A DNA stretch of 10,070 nt, taken from NCBI GenBank assembly GCA_041586955.1, contig JBFGZE010000103.1:1-10070 (forward strand). The letters are read 5' to 3'. Position 1 is the stretch's first letter; each line of letters opens with the position of its first letter. The notes under the pieces were generated by a model. That model had not been told where the DNA came from, did not search any database, and saw only the letters and a program-made list of their open reading frames with translations. Shown here in pieces: positions 1-8,164 of this stretch. Both the position numbers and the translations under genes were made by a program. This DNA comes from Bacteriovoracaceae bacterium. GTDB lineage: Bacteria; Bdellovibrionota; Bacteriovoracia; Bacteriovoracales; Bacteriovoracaceae.

Positions 1-1
1 C

Positions 2-1765
2 ATTTATCATTCATTATTTCTCTATTACAAGGTTAATGAAAATTGGGAAGAAGCGGGAAAAATTTTAAAGAACGGATTAGAAAAATATGAAGATTCGACA
101 AGGTTATTATTGGATTTAGCAGAAATTCGCCTTTCGCAAAATGAGTTTAAAAATTTTACAAATATTTTAAAAAGAGTTCACAAAAAGAAAGCGGAGAATT
201 CTCCGAGTTTTACGAGTGAGTTATTTGAATATCAAGGACTACTCGCAGGCTACCAAGGAGATACCAAAGGTGCTTCTGTATTTTTTAAAATTGCTATCCA
301 GATAAATGACACTCAAAGATTGCGGTCAAAGCTTGCTGAATTAGAAATAGGAGGAGAAAAGACCACCCAAGATCTTATCATTGAAAGTAAAGTTTTAAAC
401 CTCATGCAAAAATCACAACGAGCGGTCAAAGAAAAAAAATGGGAGGCGGCCTTCCGTTATGCTATTGATGCAGTTGATCTTTATCCCAATTATATTCCAG
501 CAAAATTATTATTATCTAATATTCAAATTAAACGAGGTTATTACGGAATGGCGACAGAGTCGTTAAAAGATTTGCGAAATAGTCATCCTGTAAATGCTAA
601 GATTTTTAAAACGCTAATATTTTCTTTGATTGAAAGTTTTAAACTGGATGACGCCAATTATGAAATCAATAGTATTTCTGGTTCGCGACTAAAGGATACT
701 GCAGAATATGCTTCTATCGTAGGTTATTATTTTTATAAAAGAGGAAATACGAGTTTGGCGGCGAAATGGTTACAGATCGCTCTTAAACGTGACCCACTTA
801 ATGATGAGGATTATTATCGCTTGGCACGTCTTTATCTCAATCACCGTCGCTATAAAGAAAGTAAACAAATGATAAATAAGGCAGTCGACCTTGATCCCGG
901 AAACCTTAATTATAAATCATTATTTGGAGAAATCCTTTATGAGTTAGATGGCGGTGAAACAGCGATTGGCTATTTACGGAAATTACTGGAAAGTAACCCC
1001 GGCCATCCTCGTTTACTTGGTGACATCGCCACTTACTACTATAGAGATGGAAAAATAAAAGATTTTAATGAATATAAAGAAAAGGTTGGAAAGCTGATTA
1101 CAGAAGATCCTTCTTTTTATCATTTTATGATCAAGAGCTCATTGATTGAGGAAAATCCCATTAATGTCATTTCTTATTGCGAAAGTTCTTTGAAGTTAAA
1201 CCCAGGGGATCTTAAAACAAGAATTATTATGGGCAGCCAATATTTAAAATTAAAACGACCGGCCCAGGCCATATCAACCTTTACTGATATTATTACCAGG
1301 CTCCCTAATTATCCACTCGCCCATTATCATTTGGCGCAGTCCCATATTCTAAAAAAAGACTATACTAAGGCCTTAGAGGCGGCAAAGAAGGAGGTTGAGT
1401 ACAACCCCACTCTCTTTGAGGGCCATTATATTAGCGGGGAAATACACCGTTTAATGGAAAATTATCCTGACGCCATAAAATCATTAGAAAAGTCTATATC
1501 TCTCAACGGAAGGTCTCCTGATGCACTGATGGCCCTGGGTTGGATAAAGATGCGTCAAAACTATATGGAACAAGCTGTTGAATTGTATAATCGCGCAAAG
1601 CGTCACCGGCCTAATAATCCAGAAATACGTAAACAACTAGGATTTATTTTTCAGGCCATCGGTCAGAGCTCCTTGGCCATAGAGGAATTGACGACCTATC
1701 TCAAACTCCATCCCGGCGCTCCCGATAGGAAGAAAATTGAATCGTATATTCGGCAGTTAAAATAA
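2..1765 (+). CDS. Long tetratricopeptide-repeat (TPR) protein, 5'-truncated by window edge
   Basis: The frame is open from base 2 (IYHSLFLYYKVNENWEEAGKILKNGLEKYEDSTRLLLDLAE...), so the TTG at 110 is probably not the true start. Many ~34-aa helical repeats with TPR signatures (AVDLYPNYIPAKLLLS, ALKRDPLNDEDYYRLA, AVDLDPGNLNY, SLKLNPGDLKTRIIMG, EVEYNPTLFEGHYISG, YLKLHPGAPD). Stop TAA at 1763-1765. Confidence 0.92.
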   Translation: MYHSLFLYYKVNENWEEAGKILKNGLEKYEDSTRLLLDLAEIRLSQNEFKNFTNILKRVHKKKAENSPSFTSELFEYQGLLAGYQGDTKGASVFFKIAIQINDTQRLRSKLAELEIGGEKTTQDLIIESKVLNLMQKSQRAVKEKKWEAAFRYAIDAVDLYPNYIPAKLLLSNIQIKRGYYGMATESLKDLRNSHPVNAKIFKTLIFSLIESFKLDDANYEINSISGSRLKDTAEYASIVGYYFYKRGNTSLAAKWLQIALKRDPLNDEDYYRLARLYLNHRRYKESKQMINKAVDLDPGNLNYKSLFGEILYELDGGETAIGYLRKLLESNPGHPRLLGDIATYYYRDGKIKDFNEYKEKVGKLITEDPSFYHFMIKSSLIEENPINVISYCESSLKLNPGDLKTRIIMGSQYLKLKRPAQAISTFTDIITRLPNYPLAHYHLAQSHILKKDYTKALEAAKKEVEYNPTLFEGHYISGEIHRLMENYPDAIKSLEKSISLNGRSPDALMALGWIKMRQNYMEQAVELYNRAKRHRPNNPEIRKQLGFIFQAIGQSSLAIEELTTYLKLHPGAPDRKKIESYIRQLK

Positions 1766-1813: not shown

Positions 1814-1901
1814 GGAGGATTGGCTGAGTGGTCGAAAGCGGCGGTTTTGAAAACCGTTGACCTTTACGGGTCCGCAGGTTCGAATCCTGTGTCCTCCGCC
1901 A
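1814..1901 (+). tRNA. tRNA-Ser (anticodon TGA)
   Basis: Acceptor GGAGGAT/GTCCTCC, discriminator G, encoded CCA. D arm GCTGAGTGGTCGAAAGC. Anticodon arm GCGGT-TT-TGA-AA-ACCGT. Long variable arm GACCTTTACGGGTC. T arm GCAGG-TTCGAAT-CCTGT. Confidence 0.97.
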
Positions 1902-1909
1902 TTCATTTC

Positions 1910-1998
1910 GGAGAAGTGGGAGAGTGGCCGAATCCAACACCTTGCTAAGGTGTCGTACCCTTTGGGTACCGCGAGTTCAAATCTCGCCTTCTCCGCCA
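1910..1998 (+). tRNA. tRNA-Ser (anticodon GCT)
   Basis: Acceptor GGAGAAG/CTTCTCC, discriminator G, encoded CCA. Anticodon arm ACACC-TT-GCT-AA-GGTGT. Long variable arm GTACCC-TTT-GGGTAC. T arm GCGAG-TTCAAAT-CTCGC. Confidence 0.97.
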
Positions 1999-2270: not shown

Positions 2271-3722
2271 TTATTTTTTAATGAAAGATTTAATTTTATG
2301 AAATATTTGTTGAAGATCAATGATAATTTTACGATCGAGAAGAACGCAAAAGGGAAAAAATACTAACATAAATATTAGAAAGGAAATAAAAATATTATTT
2401 ACAAGCTTAAAATTATAAAGAAGGTAGTTTGCCAGTAATGCTCCACTGAAAACGATGATAAAGCGTTTGATTAAGTCAAATTGAATATATTCTCTGGCAT
2501 AAATACTAGCAATAATTAAGATCGTGAAGTTAGCAATAGTCTGTGCATATAAAAATCCAAAAAGTTGAAATTGCTGTGCAAGGATATATGTTAAGCCAAT
2601 CACCAAAAAGAAGTTAATAAGTTCTATTTTAGATCGCATAAACGGGTTACCAATACCAGAAAGAAGCGAGTTAATGATATTGCGAGTCCCATAGAGTCCT
2701 ATCGTCAAAGAAATTAAGGCAATAATACTTTTAGCGGCATACCATCTTTCATTAAACAAAATGTCGATAAGAGATGGCCCAAGCGCCGCGCCGAGGCCAA
2801 AGATAAGACCAATGGCGAGAATAAGAACTTCCCCACCCCGTGTAATTAAAATTTTAATTTGCTCTCGGTTGCTTTGTAATTTGGCAATTGCGGGAAAAAG
2901 AACGTTATTATAATTATTGATGAATACTAGTGGAATAGAAACGAGTCCATTAGTCCAAAAATAAAGCCCAATAGTATCAACATCGAGAAATAATTTTAAA
3001 ATAATAGGTATGAAGATGGCGTTGAGTGCGATGATAATCAAATTAATTTGATAAAAAACGCCCTTTTTTAAATTACTAAATATTGGTTGGAGATGAGTGA
3101 AGCTGGGGACGTGATACATTTTAAGGTAAAACCCACTTGCAATAATCGTTAGCTGCCTAAGGATTATACCGATAAAGAATGACCAAAAGCCAAACCCTAA
3201 GTAAGCAAATAAAACTTGGCCAATATACAAAAAAACAGTACTGATTAATTCTATTTTAGAAAAGGCGATAAAATTTAAATTTTTTTGAAAATGGATTTTG
3301 GGAATGGTTGAGAATGCTTCAAATATGGTAATAAGGCCTAAAAAGTAAAGTCCCAGGGAATCTGATTTAAAGTTGTAATAACTCTTTAAAAAAATAAAAG
3401 AAATTCCAAAAAATATTGAAACAGAAACACTTAAAATGATTCGAATAGAAAGATAGGACTTCATTTGATTGATACTGATATCACTTTTTTGTTGGACGAG
3501 AGACTCGTGTAGGCCGATATCAGTGAGGTATGATAGTGAACTAATCCACCCATTAAGTATGCCAAAGACTCCATAGTCATAGGGAGTTAAAAGCCTGGCC
3601 AAGGAGATACTTGATATAAATTGTAAAACATTTGTTATGGCCGTTCTTAATGAAAGGATCAAAAGGCCGCGTTTGCTTTGGGTCGCAATTTTCTTCCTTT
3701 TAATACTTTCATTGTCGGTCAT
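2271..3722 (-). CDS. wzx: Wzx-type oligosaccharide flippase (polysaccharide biosynthesis/export, WzxC-like)
   Basis: 483 aa with many hydrophobic TM segments. N-terminal family motif LARLLTPYDYGVFG...DIGLHESLVQ, plus AYLGFGFWS, NVLFPAIAKLQ and ILFNERW, typical of PST-family flippases. Confidence 0.9.
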   Translation of the reverse strand: MTDNESIKRKKIATQSKRGLLILSLRTAITNVLQFISSISLARLLTPYDYGVFGILNGWISSLSYLTDIGLHESLVQQKSDISINQMKSYLSIRIILSVSVSIFFGISFIFLKSYYNFKSDSLGLYFLGLITIFEAFSTIPKIHFQKNLNFIAFSKIELISTVFLYIGQVLFAYLGFGFWSFFIGIILRQLTIIASGFYLKMYHVPSFTHLQPIFSNLKKGVFYQINLIIIALNAIFIPIILKLFLDVDTIGLYFWTNGLVSIPLVFINNYNNVLFPAIAKLQSNREQIKILITRGGEVLILAIGLIFGLGAALGPSLIDILFNERWYAAKSIIALISLTIGLYGTRNIINSLLSGIGNPFMRSKIELINFFLVIGLTYILAQQFQLFGFLYAQTIANFTILIIASIYAREYIQFDLIKRFIIVFSGALLANYLLYNFKLVNNIFISFLIFMLVFFPFCVLLDRKIIIDLQQIFHKIKSFIKK

Positions 3723-3798
3723 AATTAGTAATGAGGTTTAACTGTTAATAAAAATAAAAAGCCACTATAATTTGATTTGGACTTAACAAGATTTTACT

Positions 3799-4710
3799 AT
3801 GGAATTAAATACGCAACAAAAGAAAAGTATTGATTTTACCCCAAAAGAGCAGGTTTACTTAACGTGCCTATGTGGGCAAAAAAAATTCATCGAATATTTT
3901 GACCCCTACAAAAAAACAAAAAGGTTTGAAGGGTATAAGTTAGTGGAGTGCACGAGCTGTTCTTTGGTTAGAACTGACCCCTCGCCTATTTCGTGTCTTG
4001 ATGATGCCAAGGAATTGTATGATGACCCAAACTATTATGCTGAATCGGCAGATCAAACAAATTTCTGGCTCAAGATGGCGAAAAGAACGATTCAGGACCT
4101 CAGCAAGATAGATGTTAAGGGAAAGCTGTTAGACATTGGATGTGGACTTGGCTATATCGTAAAAGCAGCGGAAGATCTGGGTTTTAAGGCTTCAGGAATA
4201 GATTTAAACCCACATCCCATTCCTATAGGTAAAAAAAAATTTGGTGTTAATATTGCCAGAAAAACCCTTGAAGAAGTCGTTGAAAAATATGATGTTATAA
4301 CTTCAAATCATGTTTTAGAGCATGTACTATCGCCAAAGGATTTTTTAGCACAAATTGAAGAGCGTCTAAACCCTGGAGGTTATTTGCTTTTGGGTGTTCC
4401 AAATATCAATGGGGGGATACCTAGAACATTGCGCCTTTTAAATTACCTTAATCGCGGCCCGGGGGCGAATTGGCTTTGGGTTGGTTATCAGCCAAATGAA
4501 CATATTTGGCATTTTACACCTCAAACCCTAATGTCGTTCTTGGAAAAAGAAGGCTGGGAAGTTAAAAAAGTGCGAGTAAATTTAAATAATTCATATGCCT
4601 ACATTAAATTCCCTAAATTTCATCAAAGAATTATTCAAAAACTATGGCGTATTTTTGAATTCTTTAATATGGCCGATGAATTTACGGTTCTATGCCAAAA
4701 AAAGAAATGA
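3799..4710 (+). CDS. Class I SAM-dependent methyltransferase with N-terminal Cys cluster (putative Zn-binding), glycan-locus type
   Basis: Motif I LLDIGCGLG, YDVITSNHVLEHV, LNPGGYLLLGVPN, EHIWHFTP. N-terminal CLC...CTSC. Confidence 0.9.
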   Translation: MELNTQQKKSIDFTPKEQVYLTCLCGQKKFIEYFDPYKKTKRFEGYKLVECTSCSLVRTDPSPISCLDDAKELYDDPNYYAESADQTNFWLKMAKRTIQDLSKIDVKGKLLDIGCGLGYIVKAAEDLGFKASGIDLNPHPIPIGKKKFGVNIARKTLEEVVEKYDVITSNHVLEHVLSPKDFLAQIEERLNPGGYLLLGVPNINGGIPRTLRLLNYLNRGPGANWLWVGYQPNEHIWHFTPQTLMSFLEKEGWEVKKVRVNLNNSYAYIKFPKFHQRIIQKLWRIFEFFNMADEFTVLCQKKK

Positions 4711-5206
4711 AATACCTTTTTAGCTATATTCATTGCGCTTGATATTACCTAAAAAATATTAATCCTGTGGGATATTTCCGTCTACTACGACCTTTTTCTA
4801 AAAATAAAACCCTTGTCATTGGACCTTACCGGAGGGCCGTAAAGAAAAATTAAATTTTTGTTTTACTGTTTGTCGACCCTTAAAAAAATCGTTCTGTGTA
4901 TTTAAAAAGATTCGCTAGGATTATTTGGTGAGAGGTCTCAATTTTGAGAACCTGATGCCTTCTTATTAGTTATTTATGGTATTATGCAAAGGAGTTCTCG
5001 TTAACTTCCTTATTGTGGCGTTGGGGTTTGCCGACTCCATGAGCGAGTACAGTCGCTTTATTTTACGGCAATTAACCTTTTTGCCTTGGCCAATATATTG
5101 CAGGTAAGAAAATTGACTTCGTGATGGACTGTGATAGGGAGAGAAGCACCACCGCGGTTAAATATTAGGTTGCAAATAACGCTATCTGTAAAAACTAGAG
5201 ATTGGC

Positions 5207-5234
5207 TATAATTAACGTCTTCTTCAACAGGGGA
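5207..5234 (+). promoter_or_regulatory. Putative -10 box and Shine-Dalgarno for the PIMT-like gene
   Basis: Perfect TATAAT at 5207-5212. AGGGGA at 5229-5234, 7 nt before ATG 5242. No good -35 at canonical spacing. Confidence 0.45.
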
Positions 5235-5241
5235 TCCATTT

Positions 5242-6450
5242 ATGCCCGCTAAAATGTATCAAGATGAATTATTAAAATTGGCCACACGTAACTATCGTAG
5301 TACGCCCTTAAGTCAAGCTGTAAAGGATGCTTTTTACCATGTGCCTAGGCATCAATTCGTGTCGCGGTATCGTAATTTATCCCAAGGAGTATGGATCGAT
5401 ATAGATGAAGCAAATATTGAGGATAATCTCTCACTGCTTTACGCAGATCAGCCTCTTATGATTTATGGGGATGAAAATGATTTTAAAAAAGAGCTAGGCT
5501 CAGAATATGTGTCAACGATTTCCCAACCTTCTTTTGTTCTTAGAATTATCGATATTCTTCGTTTAAAAAAAGGTCATAAAGTATTTGAACTGGGAACTGG
5601 TAGTGGTTGGAATGCCGCTTTAATGGCGGATATTGTAGGGCCAACTGGAAAAGTGGTTTCTGTCGAAATTATTAAGGACTTAATAGAACGAGCTCAAAAA
5701 TCAATAGATGCACTTGGTATTAAAAATGTTCAAATTATTCATGGAGATGGAAGTGACGGCTGGGAACCAGAAGCACCTTACGATAGAATCATATTCACGG
5801 CAGGTTCGTATGAATTACCTCGATGTTTTTTTAAGCAAATCAAAGATGAGGGTCTTCTGTTATTTATCCTTAAGAATAAATATGCTGGGGATCGTTTAAT
5901 TTTATTGCAAAAACGCGGACATTGTTTTCAATCCCTTTATTCTTTAGGATGTGAATTCGTCCCTTTAACAGGGAAGCTTCGGGTAGAAGATATGGAAGAA
6001 GTTCCGATTGGGACATTATTGAAGAAAAACAATATAGAGAATAAAGTTGTCGCTAGTCAAAATATTAAATGGACAAATATTAGCGATGCCTCGTTTTATT
6101 GGAGCACATTTGGACTTAAGTCTTTTTTAACTGTTACGGATGAAAAGTTCATTCATATTCTTTTAGAAAATGGGAGCCGTACATTTGGTTATTTAGACAA
6201 AGAGAATAGTTCATTTGCCATTGCCTATCCTGAAAGAATTGATTGTTATGGAAATGATTATGCGCTTAGGTCATTAATGGAAAGAATTGATCAATGGTTA
6301 GAGTTAGGTGAACCAAGTATTTCTGATCTGGAACTTAAAGTCTTTCCAAAAGAGTCGGATTTTGTTTGGGAGGATGAAACATGGGTCGTTGCTAAGAAGG
6401 AGTCAGTTTTTGTATGGTCTTTAAGAGAGGATTATTTTCCTAGTGACTAG
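5242..6450 (+). CDS. Protein-L-isoaspartate O-methyltransferase (PIMT/Pcm) homologue with extended C-terminal domain (RiPP-associated / FxLD-system-like architecture)
   Basis: PIMT motifs VPRHQFV, STISQP, VFELGTGSGWNAA, VVSVE, GDGSDGWEPEAPYDRIIFTAG and FVPLTG (aa 239-244), followed by ~158 extra residues containing WLELGEP (aa 352-358). Confidence 0.9.
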   Translation: MPAKMYQDELLKLATRNYRSTPLSQAVKDAFYHVPRHQFVSRYRNLSQGVWIDIDEANIEDNLSLLYADQPLMIYGDENDFKKELGSEYVSTISQPSFVLRIIDILRLKKGHKVFELGTGSGWNAALMADIVGPTGKVVSVEIIKDLIERAQKSIDALGIKNVQIIHGDGSDGWEPEAPYDRIIFTAGSYELPRCFFKQIKDEGLLLFILKNKYAGDRLILLQKRGHCFQSLYSLGCEFVPLTGKLRVEDMEEVPIGTLLKKNNIENKVVASQNIKWTNISDASFYWSTFGLKSFLTVTDEKFIHILLENGSRTFGYLDKENSSFAIAYPERIDCYGNDYALRSLMERIDQWLELGEPSISDLELKVFPKESDFVWEDETWVVAKKESVFVWSLREDYFPSD

Positions 6451-6640: not shown

Positions 6641-8164
6641 ATGCAAAGTAAAGCTCTTTTTAAAATTCAATACGTACTAATAATTCTTTACGTGATTTTG
6701 AACTTTCTTGGTACTCCTTTAGTCAAGTACCTCTACCTTATAATTTGTTTTTTTGTGTTGGCAGGCCTTATTTCTTCGGGGTTACGTAAAAACATTTATG
6801 CGCTTTTAATATTGGCGTTGATTGAAGGCCAAGGACGAATTTTATGGGGATATAACTCAGTTTCTCGAATTGTATTTGATTGTCTTTTGGTTTTGGGCAT
6901 AACAAAAGATCTGATTAAAGATCGGCGTTTATTTGACCTAAAATTAGTCCCGAAAAGTCTTGTGACGCTTATAATATTACACTTCTGTTGGTTTGGATTG
7001 GAGTTATTTAATCCTAAAGGGGCAGGTATTTTACCAAGCTTTGCCACATCAAAATATTATATTTTCCCCTTTTTCCTTTTCCTTTCATTAGTTATGAATA
7101 AATTTGATATTTATTCTGAAGAATTTCAAAAATTTATTGATTATTATTCAGTAATCGTTTTTTTGATTTGCCTTCTTTGTGTTAAACAAATGATGATGGG
7201 CGCTGATTTTATGCACTCGATCTCACCATATTATTCAAACTTATTTGAGAAATTTAAAGTCTTTGGCGGTAGTAACTTTCGCCCTTGGGGGACTACATAT
7301 GTACCAGGTGGATTTTCGGGGTATATATTTCTATCGGGAGGATTTACAGTACTTAAATTTCTTGCTGATAAAAACCTTAATAAGCAAAAAGTATTCTGTT
7401 ATCTAGCTTTAACGATCTTTTCTTTTTATATTCTCTTTATAGGTCAAGTCCGAGCGTTCTTATTGCGTTACATCCTTTTTGTTATCATTATGGTGATTGC
7501 CTATATTATGATCAAAAAAGTTAAAGTCAGTAAAATCGTATTTGGATTTACGCTTGCTGCGCTAATATCTTTTGTGGGGATTAAATTAGTGTCGACGCTT
7601 GTGGGCGATCAAATTGATACAAAAACTAGCTTAAATCGTTTAATAGAATTAGAAAATGAAGGGATTTTGGCGCAACGAATGGGTATTGCTCGCCTTTATG
7701 AAACTTTGGAGAGAAGAGTTCAGCTGCCATTTGGGGTCGGCCCTGGAATGACATCTAATTTTCTACCCCAGTTTGCGGAAGCGAGACGTGCACATATCGG
7801 TCTTGAGCAAGGATACTTTTGGGGAAATGATAATTTAATTTATCTTGTTATTTTCGAATTAGGAATTGGAGGATTTGTTTATGTTTTGATCCTTATCCTC
7901 AATATACTGATTCAATTTTCGGGGATTATTTATTGCGCTAAAAAAGGTGAAACCAGGTCAGCTTTGATTATGTCAGGTGCTTTTGCGATGGTTCTAATTA
8001 ACTTTTTGGGAAGTTATGGGTCTTCGTCGCTTCTTTTTAATCCTGAGTCCTTCTATTATTGGTTTTGGTCGGCCATTGGTCTGATTGTTTATAATGAGGC
8101 AGGTGGTAAGATTGTCATCGATGAAGAGAAGAAGGATTTACGCTACGATAGCCCTGCAACTTAA
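6641..8164 (+). CDS. Polytopic membrane protein, Wzy polymerase / O-antigen ligase-like
   Basis: 507 aa with about 12 hydrophobic segments. Loop motif RPWGTT, GQVRA, a large soluble loop followed by PFGVGPG and DNLIYLVIFELGIGG, and terminal YYWFWSAIG. Context of wzx and a glycosyltransferase. Confidence 0.72.
   Translation: MQSKALFKIQYVLIILYVILNFLGTPLVKYLYLIICFFVLAGLISSGLRKNIYALLILALIEGQGRILWGYNSVSRIVFDCLLVLGITKDLIKDRRLFDLKLVPKSLVTLIILHFCWFGLELFNPKGAGILPSFATSKYYIFPFFLFLSLVMNKFDIYSEEFQKFIDYYSVIVFLICLLCVKQMMMGADFMHSISPYYSNLFEKFKVFGGSNFRPWGTTYVPGGFSGYIFLSGGFTVLKFLADKNLNKQKVFCYLALTIFSFYILFIGQVRAFLLRYILFVIIMVIAYIMIKKVKVSKIVFGFTLAALISFVGIKLVSTLVGDQIDTKTSLNRLIELENEGILAQRMGIARLYETLERRVQLPFGVGPGMTSNFLPQFAEARRAHIGLEQGYFWGNDNLIYLVIFELGIGGFVYVLILILNILIQFSGIIYCAKKGETRSALIMSGAFAMVLINFLGSYGSSSLLFNPESFYYWFWSAIGLIVYNEAGGKIVIDEEKKDLRYDSPAT

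What the first reader, a model, noticed from the sequence alone, without database searches (positions are those of the whole stretch)
5242..6450. Orphan RiPP-type PIMT (C-terminal WxxxGxP domain) embedded in a polysaccharide locus
Seen: a complete PIMT catalytic domain ending at FVPLTG, a long insert between VPRHQFV and STISQP, and a ~158-aa C-terminal extension with W-L-E-L-G-E-P (nt 6295-6315) and an acidic, Trp-rich tail. Known: housekeeping Pcm is only ~210-230 aa. PIMT homologues of ~400 aa with such a C-terminal domain (OlvS in lanthipeptides, TceM/LihM in lasso peptides, graspetide and imiditide/pamtide methyltransferases) methylate an Asp in a ribosomal peptide to give aspartimide/isoAsp. 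They are mostly characterised from Actinobacteria, and WxxxGxP is a described motif of that domain. Inference: no LanB/C, lasso cyclase or ATP-grasp gene lies in the window, the DNA is AT-rich, and the gene has its own -10/SD between glycan genes. It may be a stand-alone aspartimidylating system, act in trans on a distant RiPP locus, or have been repurposed for a protein substrate.
Basis: partly seen in the sequence, partly recalled or inferred. Interest (0 to 1): 0.72.

Follow-up and report, generated by a model that had tools for sequence, protein, structure and literature searches.

The report
Long PIMT, likely protein-repair methyltransferase
This is an intact protein-aspartate methyltransferase with the extra domain seen in peptide-antibiotic tailoring enzymes, but it has no peptide partner nearby and its relatives often lose that domain, so it is likely an ordinary protein-repair enzyme that happens to sit among sugar-polymer genes.

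Summary
The ORF (5242-6450, 402 aa) is real: PIMT catalytic domain, N-terminal insert and a C-terminal domain with WxxxGxP at 6295-6315. The RiPP reading is weak. The protein belongs to a widespread clade (Bdellovibrionota, Acidobacteriota, Chloroflexota, Cyanobacteriota, Verrucomicrobiota) apart from both canonical Pcm and actinobacterial RiPP enzymes; grouping with the latter is rejected (AU p=0.001). Its best solved match is the long repair enzyme of Thermotoga (1DL5). Across 160 homologue loci no neighbour or precursor is conserved; RiPP genes flank one lineage only. It is the only PIMT in this 88%-complete genome. In its own class, 25 of 26 relatives read have lost most of the C-domain, each as sole PIMT. 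The acidic tail is not conserved. Nine relatives' polysaccharide loci lack the gene; low GC3 and a decayed glycosyltransferase upstream suggest a passenger. The RiPP-like precursor I found elsewhere in the genome has no Asp. Best reading: isoaspartate repair (about 0.6). Against it, 21 of 50 long-form genomes also keep a canonical Pcm, so a dedicated Asp-modifying role on a folded protein stays open (about 0.2). Partnerless enzymes of this kind are published; the scan noted one before on other DNA.

The parts
5242..6450 (+). Long PIMT-family methyltransferase gene, 402 aa (the protein database entry starts at Met5, 398 aa)
   Evidence: one source contig spans 2650-8106 (not independent)
5311..5976 (+). 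PCMT catalytic domain, aa 24-245, with VPRHxF, family insert, STISQP, ELGTGSGWN SAM loop and FVPLTG
   Evidence: PF01135 146.6 bits; motifs
5977..6447 (+). C-terminal domain, aa 246-402; predicted order strand-helix-four strands-helix, then WxxxGxP and three more strands
   Evidence: AlphaFold model, mean pLDDT 91.5; domain alone 88.2
6295..6315 (+). WLELGEP (WxxxGxP), aa 352-358
   Evidence: W352, G356, P358 invariant in 48 aligned homologues
5207..5234 (+). TATAAT (5207-5212) and GGGGA (5230-5234): possible -10 box and ribosome site, no matching -35
   Evidence: sequence; scan; function untested
4758..4850 (+). Decayed glycosyltransferase fragment in the 531-nt gap upstream
   Evidence: 58% over 31 aa and 81% over 68 nt to an intact GT gene on contig C49
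3641..3825 (+). Upstream region and first codons shared with the same C49 GT gene, now joined to the 303-aa methyltransferase (3799-4710)
   Evidence: 80% over 185 nt
2271..3722 (-). Context: Wzx-type polysaccharide flippase
   Evidence: PF13440, PF01943
6641..8164 (+). Context: 507-aa membrane protein, likely Wzy-like (inferred from orthologue position)
   Evidence: no family match; orthologues in 25 of 120 family genomes, mostly in the polysaccharide locus after pheST
1814..1998 (+). Context: two tRNA-Ser genes at the left edge of the glycan genes

Best explanation
The gene encodes a long PIMT-family enzyme that likely works as a stand-alone L-isoaspartyl protein-repair methyltransferase, like the Thermotoga maritima enzyme it most resembles in fold. 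Shown: intact catalytic motifs, the extra WxxxGxP domain, membership of a widespread partnerless clade, sole PIMT of this assembly. Inferred: it uses SAM to methylate isoAsp formed spontaneously at Asn/Asp in cytoplasmic proteins; the ester closes to a succinimide that hydrolyses partly back to Asp. Inferred: the C-domain is an inherited accessory (stability, oligomer or substrate preference) that the clade can lose, and the gene is a recently arrived passenger in a variable satellite polysaccharide locus beside tRNA-Ser, with no role in glycan synthesis.
For: (1) Top structural match is 1DL5 over the whole length (Foldseek E 4e-24; VIA-align Z 27.4, 313 aligned, rmsd 6.1); the review PMC13001092 says this enzyme carries WXXXG. 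(2) No conserved neighbour in 160 loci beyond close kin and generic signalling proteins; no shared small ORF. (3) RiPP genes next to the gene in one lineage only: 1 of 60 loci by Pfam, 3 near-identical loci of 160 by tblastn. (4) Only PCMT in G000; surE is followed directly by an nlpD-like gene with no pcm between. (5) Sole PCMT in 25 of 50 long-form genomes and 22 of 23 truncated-form entries, closed Bdellovibrio chromosomes among them. (6) In the class, 25 of 26 family members read keep only 23-97 residues after the catalytic domain and lack WxxxGxP, whereas TceM and NmaM are inactive without the C-domain. (7) Canonical TISQP-type motif in 116 of 120 homologues, 11 of 11 canonical Pcm, 0 of 6 actinobacterial RiPP enzymes. 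(8) GC3 0.27, 2nd percentile of 2198 ORFs; absent from 9 of 9 relatives' loci around the Wzy-like orthologue.
Against: 21 of 50 long-form genomes also have a canonical Pcm, which a pure replacement does not predict. WxxxGxP and three Trp are strictly conserved in long forms, so the domain is under selection. The sister group holds an enzyme from a YcaO/SagB cluster (L186) and one lineage sits right behind PqqD and lasso B2 genes (L133). Mutual exclusion with canonical Pcm in the class (0 of 28) is weak evidence: 183 of 238 genomes have neither and kin are not independent. Truncated forms may have changed function. Independent losses are only suggested (AU p 0.015 under LG+G4; 0.06 under a mixture model). 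TISQP is not diagnostic: 1DL5 has STSSQP. The isolated C-domain did not list 1DL5 among its top 50 folds. No activity was measured, and the genome is 88% complete.
Confidence: 0.6

Rival explanations
1. A dedicated L-Asp methyltransferase (PAMT chemistry) whose C-domain recognises one conserved folded cellular protein encoded elsewhere and installs an aspartimide/isoAsp in it; truncated relatives would have reverted to repair or decayed.
For: Strict WxxxGxP conservation in long forms across many phyla; co-existence with canonical Pcm in 21 of 50 genomes; descent on the PAMT side of the tree; Lee et al. suggest protein substrates for FHA-linked PAMTs (PMC10787088).
Against: No conserved neighbour or fusion points to a substrate; patchy distribution, C-domain found in 3 of 238 class genomes; sole PCMT in half of the carriers; C-domain charge varies widely.
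Confidence: 0.2
2. A RiPP tailoring enzyme acting in trans on a peptide made elsewhere in the genome, such as the rSAM/SPASM-PqqD-kinase cassette on contig C40.
For: The genome has such a cassette. It follows the main polysaccharide locus, and in G009 and G011 it lies 5.6 and 13 kb from the orthologue of the window's Wzy-like gene. RiPP-adjacent relatives exist (L133, L186).
Against: The C40 precursor has no Asp, and no Asp is conserved in 6 homologues. The 5 family genomes with strong cassette matches had no PIMT-like match. No LanC (positive control rang), LanB (control silent; tblastn), lasso cyclase or B2, or graspetide ATP-grasp over cut-off; the single YcaO has no precursor or dehydrogenase beside it.
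Confidence: 0.09
3. A two-gene imiditide/pamtide system with an unannotated precursor beside the gene.
For: Pamtide precursors are often unannotated (PMC13001092); a 531-nt gap lies upstream; the C-domain here is acidic like NmaM's.
Against: With the published filter (30-75 aa, one Asp) 4 ORFs pass: 3 are shadow frames in the Wzy-like gene, and 4976-5107 is hydrophobic with 1 Asp, 2 Gly, 2 Pro. Part of the gap is a decayed GT gene. No CxxCxGxG or shared precursor among 2827 small ORFs near homologues.
Confidence: 0.03
4. A methyltransferase co-opted for the polysaccharide pathway (methyl ester on a uronic acid or on a pathway protein).
For: It lies between wzx, two other methyltransferases, a Wzy-like gene and a GT4.
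Against: No window glycan gene has a match in 160 homologue loci; GT4 genes adjoin the homologue in 2 of 60 scanned loci, both cyanobacterial; 9 of 9 relatives' loci lack it; peptide-binding motifs are intact.
Confidence: 0.04

Closest known systems
Thermotoga maritima PIMT (PDB 1DL5; NCBIfam PRK13943/NF010550)
   Same: Catalytic domain plus C-terminal domain; best fold match over aa 6-395; carries WXXXG and sits in the PAMT clade according to PMC13001092 and PMC10787088; described as a protein-repair L-isoaspartyl methyltransferase (title of Ichikawa and Clarke 1998, seen only in the reference list of PMC5668901).
   Different: 25-28% identity; 402 vs 317 aa; longer insert and three extra C-terminal strands; 122 bits vs cut-off 359. 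Its sequence could not be put in my trees.
RiPP-associated PAMTs: graspetide TgmC/AmdM/SsfM (TIGR04188), lanthipeptide FxlM/OlvS (TIGR04364), lasso TceM/LihM, imiditide NmaM/SpaM
   Same: About 400 aa, extra C-domain, WxxxGxP aligned; TIGR04188 aligns in one stretch over aa 25-371; same side of the split from canonical Pcm.
   Different: 22-33% identity; far under cut-offs; separate clade (AU p 0.0013); no cyclase or precursor in cis; C-domain similarity weak outside the motif (HHalign probability 34%, E 4e-4, 53 columns; 1 of 47 C-domains hits TIGR04188 at E 0.009); C-domain lost in close relatives.
Unassigned PAMTs of Lee et al. 2023 (3653 of 9408 enzymes with no RiPP or protein-modification clue)
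   Same: Long PIMT homologue over 300 aa with no partner gene (PMC10787088 section 2.3).
   Different: I could not show that this clade is in their set: organism names of the clade were not found in the two supplements held. The natural C-domain truncation series is not described in the sections I read.
Canonical Pcm (E. coli surE-pcm-nlpD; PRK00312, TIGR00080)
   Same: Shares TISQP and FVPL motifs and the catalytic fold; highest NCBIfam score is PRK00312 (162 bits).
   Different: Below cut-offs (188; 159); twice the length; separate branch (100/100); not in the surE-nlpD operon. A tree with the window on the Pcm side was not rejected (AU p 0.27).

Membership tests
PIMT/PCMT superfamily (PF01135) | PCMT domain above gathering score with SAM loop and PIMT motifs | tested here: met
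   146.6 bits vs 20.3; motifs
PAMT clade (Lee et al. 2023) | Over 300 aa with a C-terminal domain of strand-helix-four strands-helix order | tested here: met
   402 aa; order seen in models; full-length alignment to 1DL5
PAMT clade (Lee et al. 2023) | WxxxGxP near the end of the C-domain | tested here: met
   aa 352-358; aligns with RiPP enzymes
PAMT clade (Lee et al. 2023) | C-domain fold homologous to that of 1DL5 when taken alone | tested here: inconclusive
   isolated model: best Z 5.6 to KA1/TBP-like domains, 1DL5 not among the 50 listed
PAMT clade (Lee et al. 2023) | Methylates L-Asp rather than only isoAsp | not testable with these tools
   needs enzyme assay
RiPP-tailoring PAMT (lanthi-, lasso-, grasp-imiditide) | Encoded in a cluster with a cyclase and an Asp-containing precursor | tested here: not met
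   window; genome (88% complete)
RiPP-tailoring PAMT (lanthi-, lasso-, grasp-imiditide) | Score above TIGR04188 or TIGR04364 cut-off | tested here: not met
   143.7 vs 380; 143 vs 320
RiPP-tailoring PAMT (lanthi-, lasso-, grasp-imiditide) | Groups with actinobacterial RiPP enzymes | tested here: not met
   separate clades; AU p 0.0013 with 6 plasmid-borne references; OlvS, TceM and NmaM themselves were not in the tree
Imiditide / pamtide type I and II | Adjacent 30-75 aa Gly/Pro/Lys/Asp-rich or CxxCxGxG precursor | tested here: not met
Imiditide / pamtide type I and II | Conserved 41-aa C-terminal motif of NmaM-type enzymes | not tested
   motif is given as a figure in 10.1101/2023.04.07.536058, not held as text
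Canonical Pcm (PRK00312, TIGR00080) | About 210-230 aa, score above cut-off, often surE-pcm | tested here: not met
   402 aa; 162 vs 188 and 145 vs 159 bits; not beside surE
Thermotoga-type long repair PIMT (PRK13943) | Score above NF010550 cut-off | tested here: not met
   122 vs 359; works-like claim only
Thermotoga-type long repair PIMT (PRK13943) | Methylates isoAsp in generic peptides | not testable with these tools
   needs enzyme assay

The most novel reading that the evidence does not exclude
This clade is a cross-phylum lineage of PAMT-fold enzymes whose full-length members install an aspartimide or isoAsp on purpose in one conserved folded cellular protein rather than a RiPP, while naturally truncated members in Bdellovibrionota have turned into plain repair enzymes; the long/short pairs would then show directly how the C-domain switches Asp versus isoAsp specificity.
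Probability: 0.2. Interest if true: 0.7.

Novelty: new member of a known kind. Interest (0 to 1): 0.27.

Why it matters
As a single gene it matters little: partnerless long PIMTs are common (3653 in Lee et al.). The finding warns that a WxxxGxP C-domain alone is not a RiPP marker. The useful by-product is a natural deletion series: long, internally deleted (about 250-310 aa) and catalytic-only (about 220 aa) members at 45-55% catalytic-domain identity. These pairs make the open question of what the C-domain does for Asp versus isoAsp choice testable with ordinary assays.

Tried and rejected
Precursor search in cis by six-frame listing, the published imiditide filter and clustering of small ORFs around homologues: nothing (part of the gene maps was cut from view, the small-ORF results were not). 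Repeats or a mobile-element boundary around the gene: only short chance repeats. Rfam: only the two tRNAs. Stand-alone C-domain proteins of 77-279 aa: none at E 1e-5 (does not exclude other lengths). Isolated C-domain fold search: no clear match, 1DL5 not listed. Fusions: one metallo-beta-lactamase fusion among 6 checked, no hint at a substrate. RimK-family hits in the genome read as two RimK, a glutathione-synthetase-like protein and biotin carboxylase by inspection (labels recalled). The ESM Atlas held neither the protein nor the homologue tried. No RNA holder listed. Contigs of four runs from one study showed no form of the locus without the gene; the one joint listed is the paralogous C49 GT. 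One of 17 queries was out of frame and was ignored for the loci. Literature: no paper with PIMT + Bdellovibrio + isoaspartyl; searches returned the same few RiPP papers; subscription journals are mostly not covered. bioRxiv supplements (imiditide and lasso papers) are closed and may list related enzymes.

Full report
Observation. The ORF at 5242-6450 is intact, 402 aa. A TATAAT and a GGGGA lie upstream, though the scan finds no paired -35. The neighbours are a TPR protein, two tRNA-Ser genes, a Wzx flippase, two class I methyltransferases, a 507-aa membrane protein without family match and a GT4. The genome is 3.46 Mb, 39% GC, 88% complete; named records that coincide with loci of its family are Bacteriovorax and Halobacteriovorax, so it is a Bdellovibrionota genome. 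The runs that hold the DNA are marine metagenomes of one study.

Family. A protein search gave 856 hits; the best 120 are mostly about 395 aa, 40-52% identical, and all 120 have WxxxGxP. Named genomes with full-length members span Bdellovibrionota, Acidobacteriota, Chloroflexota, Cyanobacteriota, Verrucomicrobiota, Myxococcota, Nitrospirota and Bacteroidota. NCBIfam scores are below every cut-off: PRK00312 162/188, TIGR00080 145/159, TIGR04188 144/380 (aligned over aa 25-371), TIGR04364 143/320, PRK13943 122/359. In a catalytic-domain tree of 48 rows (a 90-row quick tree agrees) the window lies in a 30-row clade (99/92), apart from five actinobacterial RiPP enzymes taken from annotated plasmid clusters (98/94) and from canonical Pcm (100/100). 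Holding the window with the RiPP enzymes is rejected (AU p 0.0013); holding it on the Pcm side is not (p 0.27). The sister group includes an enzyme from a YcaO/SagB cluster.

Structure. The AlphaFold model (pLDDT 91.5) matches T. maritima PIMT 1DL5 best and over the whole length. The C-domain has the strand-helix-four strands-helix order that Lee et al. describe for PAMTs and 1DL5, then WxxxGxP and three more strands. Folded alone it gives only weak KA1/TBP-like matches and 1DL5 is not listed. Against five RiPP-type or related C-domains, HHalign gives probability 34%, E 4e-4, centred on the motif. So the domain is probably the PAMT/Thermotoga domain, with weak similarity outside the motif.

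Literature. I read parts 1-3 of 5 of the review PMC13001092 and parts 1-4 of 5 of PMC10787088 and searched its two supplements; for the imiditide and lasso preprints, PMC5668901 and the uS11 preprint I saw passages only. The review says RiPP PIMTs carry the extra domain and that the Thermotoga enzyme has WXXXG too. Lee et al. found 3653 of 9408 long enzymes with no RiPP clue. TceM without its C-domain and NmaM without its last 50 aa are inactive. A partnerless long PIMT is therefore a known category, and the motif is not proof of RiPP function.

Neighbourhoods. I fetched 80 genome and 80 metagenome loci (the best 80 of 174 and of 327). Clustering 1189 neighbour ORFs showed only synteny among close kin and one promiscuous signalling cluster; no window neighbour clustered with anything. 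Pfam on 274 ORFs within 3.5 kb at 60 chosen full-length loci found RiPP-type genes at one locus, L133 (PqqD and lasso B2), and GT4 genes at two cyanobacterial loci. tblastn with 16 valid RiPP-enzyme queries over all 160 loci hit only L133, L134 and L144, 94-100% identical to each other; no window glycan gene hit any locus. Among 2827 small ORFs near the genes none was shared beyond kin and none had CxxCxGxG.

Genome context. This is the only PCMT in the assembly, and surE runs straight into an nlpD-like gene. No LanC (control rang), LanB, lasso cyclase, lasso B2 or graspetide ATP-grasp was found. A RiPP-like rSAM/PqqD/kinase cassette exists on contig C40, but its precursor has no Asp, none is conserved in six homologues, and the five family genomes with strong cassette matches have no PIMT-like match. 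Earlier notes of this scan list further peptide-modifying clusters in the genome; I did not test them as substrates.

Distribution. Of 50 genomes with the long form, 25 have it as the only PCMT, 21 also have a canonical Pcm and 4 have another weaker match (completeness not given). In 238 genomes of the class, 28 have a family member, each as a single match; 27 have weaker, mostly canonical matches; 183 have neither. The C-domain was found in 3 of 238. Of the 27 other family loci 26 gave an ORF: 1 full length, 25 truncated without WxxxGxP. Truncated forms are the only PCMT in 22 of 23 entries (some entries may be the same genome). They nest among long forms; the tree needs 4 changes, 2 forced by starred branches, and their monophyly is rejected under one model (p 0.015) but not another (p 0.06). 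The family keeps the canonical TISQP motif (116 of 120) that the six actinobacterial RiPP references lack, though 1DL5 lacks it too. The acidic C-domain is a local trait.

Why among glycan genes. The gene's GC3 is in the 2nd percentile. A decayed glycosyltransferase lies just upstream and the promoter region of its intact paralogue precedes the neighbouring methyltransferase. Orthologues of the downstream membrane protein occur in 25 of 120 family genomes; none of nine regions fetched around them holds a PIMT. The locus beside tRNA-Ser looks like a recombination patchwork and the PIMT a passenger; that is inference.

Mechanism and verdict. Most likely (0.6) the enzyme methylates spontaneously formed isoAsp and starts repair, with the C-domain as a dispensable accessory; chemistry is inferred, not shown. 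A dedicated Asp-modifying role on a folded protein (0.2) is kept alive by strict motif conservation and co-existence with Pcm in 21 of 50 genomes. In-trans RiPP tailoring (0.09), glycan methylation (0.04) and a cis pamtide (0.03) have little support. It is a new member of a known kind; interest 0.27. The natural long/short series is the part worth testing.

Noticed in passing
G000:C40:19511-25040 (L194:7512-13041): RiPP-like cassette after the main polysaccharide locus: 67-aa precursor (YxKP leader, invariant C-N-G..G.RK..P..C core ending in Ser, no Asp), HPr-kinase-like, two PqqD, nucleotidyltransferase-like, rSAM/SPASM, ABC. Precursor homologues in G009, G011, G024, G029, G045. Noted before by this scan (e1-9806591, e1-9967783).
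   Followed up: partly
window 6641-8164; L254-L262: The Wzy-like gene sits between wzc-like and wza-like genes after pheST in several relatives but has moved to a satellite locus beside tRNA-Ser here (wzc, wza and wzy labels are mine).
   Followed up: partly
window 3641-3825 and 4758-4850; G000:C49:1447-2616: A copy of a GT gene's upstream region and start now drives the 303-aa methyltransferase, with a decayed GT piece behind it: signs of gene replacement by recombination.
   Followed up: yes
L133:5221-7173, L134, L144: One metagenomic lineage has the long PIMT right behind PqqD and lasso B2 genes, near a kinase-like gene and a B12 radical SAM; no cyclase or precursor seen in 6 kb upstream.
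   Followed up: partly
L186 (NZ_CP072145.1): A sister-group long PIMT follows YcaO (split by an IS3) and SagB genes on a Rhizobium plasmid: a candidate azole-peptide cluster with a PAMT outside Actinomycetota.
   Followed up: no
L004, L047, L065, L075, L081-L095, L214-L239: Truncated family members: many keep the last C-terminal strands and delete the middle of the C-domain; Bdellovibrio forms (218-253 aa) keep almost none.
   Followed up: yes
L182 (G000:C44): surE is followed directly by an nlpD-like gene, with no pcm between as in E. coli.
   Followed up: partly
G000:C66:11536-13839: 767-aa YcaO-domain protein with an N-terminal extension (OsmC-like by recall), no precursor beside it.
   Followed up: partly
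G000:C43:3727-4014 and 10036-10353: Two lone PqqD-like genes with no RiPP enzyme nearby; noted before (e1-9911925).
   Followed up: no
P0123: 869-aa fusion of a metallo-beta-lactamase-fold region to a full-length family member.
   Followed up: no
window 1-1765; contig C114: The window's 5' end overlaps the end of contig C114, which carries respiratory complex I-like genes (label by inspection) and the start of the TPR gene.
   Followed up: partly
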